This document shows positions 15,257 through 15,556 of a stretch of DNA of 64,000 bases, piece by piece. The notes beneath the pieces were generated by a model. The model worked only from the letters and a program-made list of their open reading frames with translations. It was not told the DNA's origin and searched no databases. A program made the translations under genes and the position numbers. Origin of the DNA: a virus (lineage: Duplodnaviria; Caudoviricetes). Where the stretch lies: IMG/VR virus record IMGVR_UViG_3300042881_004206, one strand, 5' to 3'. How positions within the stretch are numbered: the stretch's first letter is position 1; every line of letters starts with the position of its first letter.

Positions 15257-15556
15257 TGCTGTATGAAACAAAGAGAAAAGTGTTCTGGACGTGGGTTCGA
15301 CTCCCACCTGGTCCACCATAAGTTGATTTGCAGACCGTGCCACTTCTTGTAAAAAGAATCGTATTGCAGGACGGAATCAACTTATGATGGGCCAGTCATG
15401 GTATCGACAGGGCAAAGAGTAACAGAGTGGACAGCACGGTAGGCGATGACCGTAAATCAAGCAAATCAAGTAAATGCAAACGACGAAAAGTTCGCATTGG
15501 CTGCCTAATTAAAGGCGCCTAGGGTTCGGTGGGTTCCTCGTAACAGAATACCCACC
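15257..15556 (+). ncRNA. ssrA: tmRNA, circularly permuted (two-piece) gene; tag ANDEKFALAA
   Basis: Acceptor piece 15257-15318 (T-arm GTGGG-TTCGACT-CCCAC, 3' CTGGTCC-A-CCA) precedes coding piece starting GGGCCAG at 15389; 7-bp acceptor stem with G3-U wobble; helix-2 pairs CAGGGCA/TGTTCTG and ACAGCA/TGCTGT; tag ORF 15476-15508. Confidence 0.9.

What the first reader, a model, noticed from the sequence alone, without database searches (positions are those of the whole stretch)
15257..15556. Phage-encoded circularly permuted (two-piece) tmRNA
Seen: the tRNA-like 3' end (T-arm, CTGGTCC-A-CCA at 15308-15318) lies upstream of the 5' end (GGGCCAG, 15389). The two pair into an acceptor stem with the G3-U alanine determinant. 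Helix-2 segments pair across the pieces, a pk1-like stem ACGGT/ACCGT precedes the tag ANDEKFALAA*, and no second CCA end follows. Known: permuted ssrA genes occur in Alphaproteobacteria, some cyanobacteria and some Betaproteobacteria; phage tmRNAs exist but are uncommon. Inference: the phage makes a compact two-piece tmRNA, with little room for the pk2-pk4 region, to control ribosome rescue or to replace host tmRNA destroyed by defence nucleases. The tag is proteobacterial-type and hints at the host.
Basis: partly seen in the sequence, partly recalled or inferred. Interest (0 to 1): 0.88.

Follow-up and report, generated by a model that had tools for sequence, protein, structure and literature searches.

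The report
Two-piece tmRNA gene in lake phage
A large T4-like phage from lake water carries an intact, circularly permuted ("two-piece") gene for tmRNA, the RNA that rescues stalled ribosomes; the call is correct, but such genes have been published for related aquatic phages since 2022, so this is a new member of a known kind.

Summary
ARAGORN calls a permuted tmRNA with tag ANDEKFALAA. Rfam gives 138.5 bits for tmRNA_permuted (cut-off 47) and 136.2 bits for beta_tmRNA (cut-off 84).

The window is part of a 156.6-kb, about 92% complete IMG/VR virus record. It is a freshwater T4-like myophage with 22 tRNA genes and no smpB.

The gene lies in the order PhoH, PD-(D/E)XK nuclease, tmRNA, endolysin, gp33-like coactivator, gp59, gp32. 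That is the same slot as the published ssrA of Methylophilales phage Melnitz (Buchholz 2022, PMC9004378). Melnitz scores as alpha-type with a glutamine riboswitch; this gene scores as beta-type without one.

Across 93 distinct relatives the T-stem and the inter-piece helix 2 covary, G3:U is kept in 92 of 93, and 94 of 98 tags end in AA.

The gene sits in an all-virus clade. No deposited phage and no sampled bacterium has a close copy.

Function (supplying trans-translation with host SmpB and AlaRS) is inferred, not shown. This scan has noted the same kind hundreds of times on other DNA. Interest is modest.

The parts
15024..15052 (+). Perfect sigma-70-type promoter (TTGACA, 17 nt, TATAAT). It is the only strong promoter upstream of the tmRNA gene and the probable start of the precursor transcript.
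   Evidence: 12 of 12 consensus matches. No comparable site lies closer to the gene.
15059..15250 (+). 63-codon ORF between the promoter and the tmRNA. It is probably co-transcribed with it, and its C-terminus is hydrophobic.
   Evidence: Open frame. Weak phrog_1679 match, E 3e-5. tblastn homologues in L012, L029 and L053, and in L029 it again lies just upstream of the tmRNA.
15257..15318 (+). Acceptor piece (about 62 nt; the 5' end is not determined). Parts: helix-2 strands 15258-15262 and 15281-15287, T-arm 15291-15307, acceptor 3' strand 15308-15314, discriminator A 15315, encoded CCA 15316-15318.
   Evidence: Rfam alignment, cofold, covariation. A 58-nt contig from an RNA library spans 15261-15318 and ends at the CCA, but with 5 mismatches, so it comes from a relative.
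15319..15388 (+). Intervening segment (70 nt), excised on maturation. It folds as a hairpin stacked on the acceptor stem and contains no ORF.
   Evidence: Precursor fold. Outer helix covers 94% of the segment with 11 uninterrupted pairs, z = -2.8. The same stem-closed build is seen in 86 of 88 relatives.
15389..15564 (+). Coding piece (about 176 nt; the 3' end is not determined). Parts: acceptor 5' strand GGGCCAG 15389-15395 with G3 at 15391, D-loop analogue 15396-15407, helix-2 strands 15408-15414 and 15431-15435, PK1-position hairpin 15436-15453.
   Evidence: Rfam RF01850 covers 15205-15564. Cofold. Covariation of helix 2 and of the hairpin. Contigs in two lake RNA libraries match parts of 15408-15465 exactly.
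15476..15508 (+). Tag reading frame: resume codon GCA, peptide ANDEKFALAA, stop TAA.
   Evidence: ARAGORN. The identical tag occurs in L012, L046, L047 and L114. 94 of 98 viral tags end in AA and 89 of 98 start with AN.
15528..15556 (+). Conserved 3' hairpin after the tag (GGTGGGT ... ACCCACC). It corresponds to the first of the two post-tag hairpins of the beta_tmRNA model; the second is absent here.
   Evidence: Rfam alignment. Its pairs covary across relatives well above shuffled controls, e.g. 46/68 against 20 and 62/78 against 36.
15583..15786 (+). 67-codon ORF straight after the tmRNA, preceded by a GGAG ribosome-binding site. No terminator is predicted in between, so read-through is likely.
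   Evidence: No Pfam or PHROG match.
16315..17147 (+). gp33-like late-transcription coactivator (16315-16536) and gp59-like helicase loader (16536-17147). These are the synteny anchors shared with Melnitz.
   Evidence: Pfam Trans_coact, E 1e-16. phrog_269, E 9e-59. Melnitz map.

Best explanation
This is a functional, circularly permuted ssrA gene of a lytic freshwater T4-like myophage.

Proposed mechanism:
1. Host RNA polymerase transcribes it early from the consensus sigma-70 promoter at 15024-15052, probably on one transcript with the small ORFs on either side.
2. The precursor folds so that the 70-nt intervening hairpin sits where a tRNA's 5' leader and 3' trailer would be.
3. RNase P cuts before G15389 and 3' trimming stops at the encoded CCA (15318). 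This releases an acceptor piece of about 62 nt and a coding piece of about 170 nt.
4. The pieces stay joined by the 7-bp acceptor stem and by helix 2.
5. Host AlaRS charges the complex through G3:U. Host SmpB and EF-Tu deliver it to ribosomes stalled on broken mRNAs. The phage has no smpB.
6. Translation resumes at GCA 15476, adds ANDEKFALAA and terminates at TAA. This frees the ribosome and marks the peptide for host ClpXP-type proteolysis.

The likely benefit is to keep ribosome-rescue capacity up while host transcription is shut off and mRNA is being degraded, alongside the phage's 22 tRNAs.

Shown here: gene identity, intactness, conservation with compensatory changes, fixed genomic slot, phage context.
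Inferred: the promoter used, the processing sites, charging, SmpB dependence, and the benefit to the phage.
For: - Detection: ARAGORN and two Rfam models, full-length and far above their cut-offs.
- Subtype: beta 136.2 bits, alpha 73.2, cyano 38.9.
- Fold: the cofold recovers the two-piece architecture.
- Covariation across 93 distinct viral relatives:
  - the T-stem variable pair is paired in 93/93, with all four Watson-Crick types;
  - the two variable inter-piece helix-2 pairs are paired in 90/93 and 92/93, against 46 and 58 in shuffles;
  - the distal helix is paired in 88-91 of 92-93 for five of its six pairs (the sixth is 82/91);
  - G3:U is kept in 92/93.
- Tag: 94/98 tags end in AA.
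- Context: T4-like genes on both sides. The gene order matches the Melnitz ssrA and recurs in about 40-50 viral contigs.
- Promoter: 12 of 12 consensus matches.
- Translation set: 22 tRNAs and no SmpB.
- RNA: contigs from RNA libraries pile up on the tmRNA segments only, not on the flanking ORFs.
- Published precedent for the kind: PMC9004378. Maturation of permuted tmRNA by tRNA-processing enzymes: PMC11915505, introduction.
Against: - There is no direct evidence of transcription, processing, alanylation or tagging for this phage. The RNA-library contigs are short, mostly 90-95% identical, and could come from relatives or from bacteria.
- The 5' end of the acceptor piece and the 3' end of the coding piece are undefined.
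- The nearest strong promoter is about 205 nt upstream, with an ORF in between. About 20 relatives have a strong promoter ending about 35 nt before the conserved TTCTGGACG motif.
- The middle 4-bp segment of helix 2 in the Rfam model is mismatched here.
- A true PK1 pseudoknot could not be shown.
- The host is unknown, so compatibility with its SmpB and AlaRS is assumed.
Confidence: 0.85

Rival explanations
1. It is a decoy or inhibitor rather than a supplier. The phage RNA soaks up host SmpB or competes with host tmRNA, so that trans-translation is damped or redirected. This would resemble the TLD-only molecule of mycobacteriophage DS6A, which inhibited tmRNA in E. coli.
For: The phage has no smpB, so its RNA must compete for the host protein. 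A phage tmRNA-like inhibitor has precedent (PMC4131195 and PMC11915505, citing Mao et al. 2009).
Against: A decoy needs only the tRNA-like domain. Here the resume codon, a 10-codon tag with the ALAA end, the stop codon and the 3' hairpin are all conserved across about 100 relatives. That points to selection on tagging itself.
Confidence: 0.07
2. It provides selective tagging for phage benefit. The phage tmRNA marks host or unfinished proteins for proteolysis to recycle amino acids, or changes the fate of tagged proteins through its own tag sequence, rather than simply maintaining rescue capacity. Buchholz et al. raised this idea.
For: Proposed in PMC9004378. Some relatives carry long, conserved, non-standard tags of 21-32 residues (13 of them 28-32), which suggests that tag content matters.
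Against: This phage's tag is an ordinary proteobacterial-type decapeptide. tmRNA has no known way to choose its substrates beyond stalled ribosomes (established knowledge).
Confidence: 0.06
3. It is a non-functional remnant: host DNA picked up by imprecise excision, or an attP-type ssrA fragment, now decaying.
For: Phages and islands often carry ssrA fragments because ssrA is an integration site (PMC4383910, PMC9004378).
Against: Both halves are complete. No integrase is nearby and the phage is T4-like. The gene holds a fixed slot in dozens of phages and shows compensatory changes. It lies in an all-virus clade with support 96-98. The best match in the bacterial genomes sampled is only about 80% identical over about 130 nt.
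Confidence: 0.02

Closest known systems
ssrA of Methylophilales (OM43) phage Melnitz and Melnitz-like or pelagimyophage contigs (Buchholz et al. 2022, PMC9004378; MZ577097)
   Same: Both are aquatic T4-like (Kyanoviridae-type) myophages with a permuted two-piece tmRNA. The slot is the same: after PhoH and the PD-(D/E)XK nuclease and before the gp33-like coactivator, gp59 and gp32. Both have a promoter upstream and a stem-closed intervening segment.
   Different: Melnitz scores as alpha-type (106.7 bits) and has the alpha-style T-arm, a glutamine riboswitch right after the gene (52.8 bits), a 14-residue tag and a 142-nt spacer that appears to hold a small ORF. This gene scores as beta-type (136.2 bits) and has a canonical T-arm, no riboswitch, a 10-residue tag and a 70-nt spacer without an ORF. 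The habitat is freshwater, not marine. gp59 is only 40% identical.
Bacterial beta-type two-piece tmRNA (Rfam RF01850; the 'third lineage' of Sharkady and Williams 2004, as cited in PMC9004378)
   Same: Best-scoring subtype model. Same order of elements: helix 2 formed between the pieces, a simple hairpin at the PK1 position, a tag of the ANDExFALAA type, and a hairpin instead of pk2-pk4.
   Different: It scores 136 bits against 158-296 for the bacterial members sampled. It lacks the second, GC-rich 3' hairpin, its spacer is much longer (70 nt), and CCA is encoded, whereas two bacterial examples end ...ACC+T/C. It falls in an all-virus clade apart from the 14 sampled bacterial genes. In bacteria the type is rare: 4 of 151 genomes of that order score over the cut-off.
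One-piece phage tmRNAs (mycobacteriophage Bxz1 group, Bacillus phage G; PMC4131195)
   Same: A phage-borne ssrA in a large phage that also carries many tRNAs.
   Different: Those genes are standard (not permuted) and belong to unrelated phages of Gram-positive hosts. Sequence similarity is limited to the 35-50 nt tRNA-like core.

Membership tests
Permuted (two-piece) tmRNA | Score above the curated threshold of the family covariance model | tested here: met
   RF04321 138.5 bits against a cut-off of 47, model positions 1-213 of 213.
Permuted (two-piece) tmRNA | Gene order is circularly permuted: the 3' half of the tRNA-like domain with CCA lies upstream of the 5' half, separated by an intervening segment | tested here: met
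   CCA at 15316-15318 and the 5' strand at 15389-15395. ARAGORN flags the gene as permuted.
Permuted (two-piece) tmRNA | Acceptor stem with the G3:U alanine identity pair, discriminator A and a T-arm | tested here: met
   GGGCCAG pairs with CTGGTCC with G3:U, followed by A and CCA. T-arm at 15291-15307. G3:U is kept in 92/93 relatives and the T-stem pair in 93/93 with 4 pair types.
Permuted (two-piece) tmRNA | Helix 2 formed between the two pieces | tested here: met
   Cofold. The two variable proximal pairs are paired in 90/93 and 92/93, against 46 and 58 in shuffles. These pairs were not used to select the loci. The middle 4-bp segment of the model is mismatched here.
Permuted (two-piece) tmRNA | Tag reading frame with a GCA resume codon, a hydrophobic ...LAA end and a stop codon | tested here: met
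   ANDEKFALAA* at 15476-15508. Conserved in relatives.
Permuted (two-piece) tmRNA | Pseudoknot PK1 upstream of the resume codon | tested here: inconclusive
   A covarying hairpin is present at 15436-15453. A candidate second stem did no better than shuffled sequence (5.60 against 5.62). The beta model also shows only a hairpin here.
Permuted (two-piece) tmRNA | Precursor processed into two RNAs that stay base-paired | not testable with these tools
   Only assembled contigs of RNA libraries were available. A 58-nt contig ends at the CCA, and contigs cover the coding piece but not the flanks. This is suggestive only.
Permuted (two-piece) tmRNA | Alanylation by AlaRS, SmpB binding and trans-translation activity | not testable with these tools
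   The sequence determinants are present. No smpB is found in the phage, so host SmpB would be needed.
Beta-type subtype (RF01850) | Best score among the three subtype models and above the cut-off | tested here: met
   Beta 136.2 bits (cut-off 84), alpha 73.2, cyano 38.9.
Beta-type subtype (RF01850) | Descent from the betaproteobacterial two-piece lineage (groups with its bacterial members) | tested here: inconclusive
   The window lies in an all-virus clade (support 96-98). The 14 bacterial genes form their own clade (88). Viral monophyly is not rejected (p-AU 0.97 and 0.39). The alignments have only 200-207 columns, and the quick searches missed better trees.
Melnitz-type phage ssrA locus | Same genomic slot in a T4-like aquatic phage | tested here: met
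   PhoH, PDDEXK nuclease, tmRNA, coactivator, gp59 and gp32 lie in the same order in both. The order recurs in about 40-50 viral contigs.
Melnitz-type phage ssrA locus | Glutamine riboswitch at the 3' end of ssrA | tested here: not met
   RF01739 is found in Melnitz (52.8 bits). It is not found here even at E <= 1, nor in the 13 relatives scanned.

The most novel reading that the evidence does not exclude
The beta-like permuted tmRNAs of aquatic T4-like phages may be a virus-specific lineage of their own. On this reading they are inherited vertically at one fixed slot (PhoH/nuclease ... gp33/gp59/gp32) and are distinct from every sampled bacterial two-piece tmRNA. Most members of the bacterial order that the tag resembles carry one-piece tmRNA. 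If so, these phages are not copying their host's ssrA. They bring in a structurally different rescue RNA, and the tmRNA subtype of a phage would be a poor guide to its present or past host. That would weaken inferences such as the SAR11-to-OM43 host transition drawn from the Melnitz ssrA.
Probability: 0.35. Interest if true: 0.5.

Novelty: new member of a known kind. Interest (0 to 1): 0.3.

Why it matters
It adds a clean freshwater, beta-type example to the published marine, alpha-type case (Melnitz), in the same genomic slot. It also shows that the gene class is abundant and under purifying selection in uncultured aquatic T4-like phages: about 100 carriers came from one narrow scan.

It gives three concrete, testable hooks for the unanswered question of why lytic phages carry tmRNA:
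- a defined promoter;
- predicted processing sites;
- a tag that could be engineered.

It does not change what is known about tmRNA biology.

Tried and rejected
1. A long-range pseudoknot between the hairpin loop UAGGCG (15440-15445) and CGCCUA (15517-15522). Across relatives the best loop-to-post-stop helix is no longer than in shuffled sequence (5.60 against 5.62). Rejected.

2. A blind all-against-all covariation scan of the coding piece was swamped by trivial G:U combinations. Uninformative.

3. 'The bacterial beta-type clade is nested inside phage diversity, so the bacterial type has a phage origin.' This appeared in quick trees under two rootings. However, a tree with all viral genes held as one clade has a log-likelihood 69 units higher (p-AU 0.97). 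Dropped.

4. Does the Melnitz gene belong with bacterial alpha tmRNAs or with the viral beta-like clade? The free tree says alpha (support 96), and the alpha-style T-arm agrees. A constrained tree joining Melnitz to the viral clade scores 25 log-likelihood units higher (p-AU 0.74). Unresolved with 207 columns.

5. blastn against 50,697 deposited phages gave no match at E 1e-5. At E 10 only the 35-50 nt tRNA-like core matched.

6. Naming the host. The best bacterial matches are unnamed, small, low-GC genomes of the same order as Accumulibacter, at about 80% identity over about 130 nt.

7. Expression. Only assembled contigs of RNA libraries were on offer. Most matches are 90-95% identical and come from relatives. 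Not decisive.

8. My first spacer closing-stem count allowed too small an end offset and gave a false null result. Redone with MFE folds.

9. Acceptor-stem covariation is partly circular, because I located the 5' strand by its complementarity. I therefore rest the argument on the T-stem and helix 2.

Full report
OBSERVATION

- The T-arm (15291-15307) is followed by the acceptor 3' strand CTGGTCC (15308-15314), the discriminator A and CCA (15316-15318).
- Seventy bases downstream lies GGGCCAG (15389-15395). It pairs with the 3' strand over seven positions, with G3 opposite U.
- A hairpin ACGGT/ACCGT (15436-15440 with 15449-15453) precedes the frame GCA...TAA (15476-15508), which encodes ANDEKFALAA.

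ARAGORN independently calls a permuted tmRNA with that tag. Rfam gives full-length matches to tmRNA_permuted (138.5 bits, cut-off 47, E 4e-27) and beta_tmRNA (136.2 bits, cut-off 84, E 2e-41). The alpha model scores 73.2 bits and the cyano model 38.9, so the gene is beta-like.

Folding the two predicted pieces together on energy alone returns the acceptor stem in trans, the T-arm and helix 2 between the pieces. In the precursor the 70-nt intervening segment forms a hairpin stacked on the acceptor stem.

WHERE IT SITS

The window is the minus strand of bases 1-64000 of a 156,624-bp IMG/VR virus record estimated to be 92% complete. Overall GC is 37.2%. The record has 22 tRNA genes in one cluster and this single tmRNA. 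No SmpB homologue is found.

The neighbours, in order, are:
- PhoH, a PD-(D/E)XK nuclease, DUF6734 and a 198-aa ORF;
- a perfect TTGACA-17-TATAAT promoter (15024-15052);
- a 63-codon ORF;
- the tmRNA;
- a 67-codon ORF;
- an endolysin, a gp33-like late-transcription coactivator, the gp59 helicase loader, a deoxyribonucleotidase and the gp32 SSB.

gp32 is about 57% identical to the proteins of cyanomyophages and of pelagimyophage HTVC008M. The same 6-kb stretch is held, at 0.69-0.99 of its sampled words, by lake and freshwater metagenomes from many separate studies. This is a recurrent freshwater T4-like myophage.

IS IT KNOWN?

Yes. Buchholz et al. 2022 (PMC9004378) described a two-piece ssrA in the OM43 myophage Melnitz. 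They counted 53 permuted calls among 402 tmRNA-bearing deposited phages, 50 of them marine or aquatic, and found permuted tmRNAs in 17 of 47 Melnitz-like contigs. The 2025 tmRNA database lists 79 unique phage tmRNA sequences (PMC11915505).

The Melnitz record shows the same gene order: PhoH, PDDEXK nuclease, SsrA, late-transcription coactivator, gp59, then thyX and gp32. The gene here is therefore the positional counterpart of the published one.

The two differ in subtype. Melnitz scores as alpha-type (106.7 bits), has the alpha-style T-arm and carries a glutamine riboswitch directly after the gene. This gene and the 13 relatives I scanned score as beta-type and have no riboswitch. One of the 13 (L107) was listed only under tmRNA_permuted.

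No deposited phage among 50,697 records has a close copy. Only the 35-50 nt tRNA-like core matches. I found no paper describing this freshwater beta-type clade. This scan itself has noted phage permuted tmRNAs 506 times in at least 390 genomes.

About 100 of them carry an ARAGORN permuted tmRNA, and four have the identical tag. The nearest are only about 78% identical over the whole gene. About 40-50 share the endolysin, gp33, gp59 and gp32 neighbourhood.

In 93 distinct sequences:
- the one variable T-stem pair is paired in 93/93 and uses all four Watson-Crick types;
- the two variable proximal pairs of helix 2, which form between the two pieces and played no part in selecting the loci, are paired in 90/93 and 92/93, against 46 and 58 in shuffles;
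- five of the six distal helix-2 pairs are paired in 88-91 of 92-93 (the sixth in 82/91), and the 3' hairpin also covaries;
- G3:U is kept in 92/93.

The PK1-position hairpin changes by compensatory steps, for example GG/CC to AG/CT to GA/TC. Of 98 viral tags, 94 end in AA and 89 begin with AN. The spacer is closed by a stem in 86 of 88 relatives.

The acceptor-stem counts are partly circular, because I located the 5' strand by its complementarity, so I do not lean on them.

EVOLUTIONARY PLACEMENT

In 151 sampled genomes of the order that contains Accumulibacter, only 4 have a beta-type permuted tmRNA above the cut-off. The best DNA match among 400 such genomes is about 80% identical over about 130 nt, in a 2.0-Mb low-GC genome with tag ANDENFALAA.

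In three trees the window's gene falls in an all-virus clade of 37-39 sequences, with SH-aLRT support of 96-98 (in the second tree the long-branched Melnitz outgroup attaches to it). The 14 bacterial two-piece genes form one clade.

Quick trees suggested that the bacterial clade was nested among the viral genes. A constrained tree with all viral genes together is 69 log-likelihood units better (p-AU 0.97), so I withdrew that reading.

Whether the Melnitz gene belongs with bacterial alpha tmRNAs or with the viral clade could not be settled with 207 columns. The T-arm signature favours alpha.

The firm conclusion is limited: this gene is not a recent capture from any bacterium sampled. The tag is generic for Beta- and Gammaproteobacteria, so it is at best a weak host hint.

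EXPRESSION

Only assembled contigs of RNA libraries were available.
- In one freshwater metatranscriptome, contigs lie on the tmRNA segments alone at 90-95% identity, so they come from relatives. One is a 58-nt contig that spans 15261-15318 and ends at the CCA. Low-depth contigs at about 99% identity on gp59 and gp32 show this phage, or a near twin, in the same library.
- Two lake metatranscriptomes from different studies hold contigs that exactly match parts of 15408-15465 at high depth, with nothing on the flanking ORFs.

This fits an abundant stable RNA of this family. It does not prove expression or processing of this particular gene.

MECHANISM (inferred from established tmRNA biology)

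1. Early transcription by host polymerase from the consensus promoter, probably as part of a longer transcript. No terminator is predicted between the 63-codon ORF, the tmRNA and the 67-codon ORF.
2. RNase P cleavage before G15389 and 3' trimming to the encoded CCA remove the spacer hairpin.
3. The pieces are held together by the acceptor stem and helix 2.
4. Host AlaRS charges the RNA through G3:U, and host SmpB and EF-Tu deliver it to stalled ribosomes.
5. ANDEKFALAA is added, translation terminates, and the tagged peptide is degraded.

The benefit I consider most likely is keeping up ribosome rescue when host ssrA can no longer be transcribed and mRNA fragments abound, in line with the phage's 22 tRNAs. 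A decoy role, a selective-tagging role and a remnant are the rivals. The conserved tag frame argues against the first and the last.

VERDICT

The identification is real and correct, and it is well supported by comparative evidence. The kind is already published and has been seen repeatedly by this scan. What is new is modest:
- a freshwater, beta-type member;
- in the same slot as the alpha-type Melnitz gene;
- belonging to a large uncultured viral clade.

Function remains untested.

Noticed in passing
G000:C1:117513-120959 (outside the window): A cluster of 22 tRNA genes, including three tRNA-Met(CAT) and a tRNA-Ile(TAT). Together with the tmRNA this gives the phage a large translation RNA set.
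   Followed up: no
L007, L035, L050, L106, L116 (31-aa tags); L028, L060, L082, L087, L094, L096 (28-aa tags): A subgroup of the viral permuted tmRNAs encodes long, mutually conserved tags, such as ANADTFDFSAMSFTGNTV...ALAA, whose last ten residues look like a complete ordinary tag. The extension is conserved across contigs, so it may have a function.
   Followed up: no
Spacers of L010, L029, L030, L098, L109, L120 and 12 others; L279:3104-3245 (Melnitz): 18 of 93 relatives have an ATG-started ORF of 25 or more codons inside the excised spacer. The 142-nt Melnitz spacer also shows one, preceded by GGAG. Earlier follow-ups of this scan reported the same. The spacer in this window is too short (70 nt) and has none.
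   Followed up: partly
window 15024-15052 and relatives: About 20 relatives have a near-consensus sigma-70 promoter ending about 35 nt before the conserved TTCTGGACG motif of the tRNA-like domain. That is only a few nt before the first helix-2 strand, so the transcript would start at the acceptor piece. Here and in some others the strong promoter lies 200-300 nt upstream, with a small ORF in between. The 5' end of the acceptor piece must then be made differently in the two groups.
   Followed up: partly
L280, L281 (bacterial beta-type genes): These two bacterial two-piece genes do not encode the terminal A of CCA (...ACC then T or C). The phage gene, and Melnitz, encode the full CCA. The viral set was selected with CCA in the search pattern, so the contrast needs an unbiased sample.
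   Followed up: no
window 15312-15527 in DNA run X4: Assemblies of the lake metagenome break inside the tmRNA gene, and word depth there is about ten times that of the flanks (102-125 against 11.5-12.8). Many co-occurring genomes therefore share tmRNA words, which is a likely cause of fragmented phage contigs at this locus.
   Followed up: no
L099, L110, L023, L033, L034, L055, L071, L074, L079: These viral contigs match the tRNA-like 3' domain pattern but have no matching 5' acceptor strand within 450 nt downstream, although sequence is available. They may be one-piece genes or have very long spacers.
   Followed up: no
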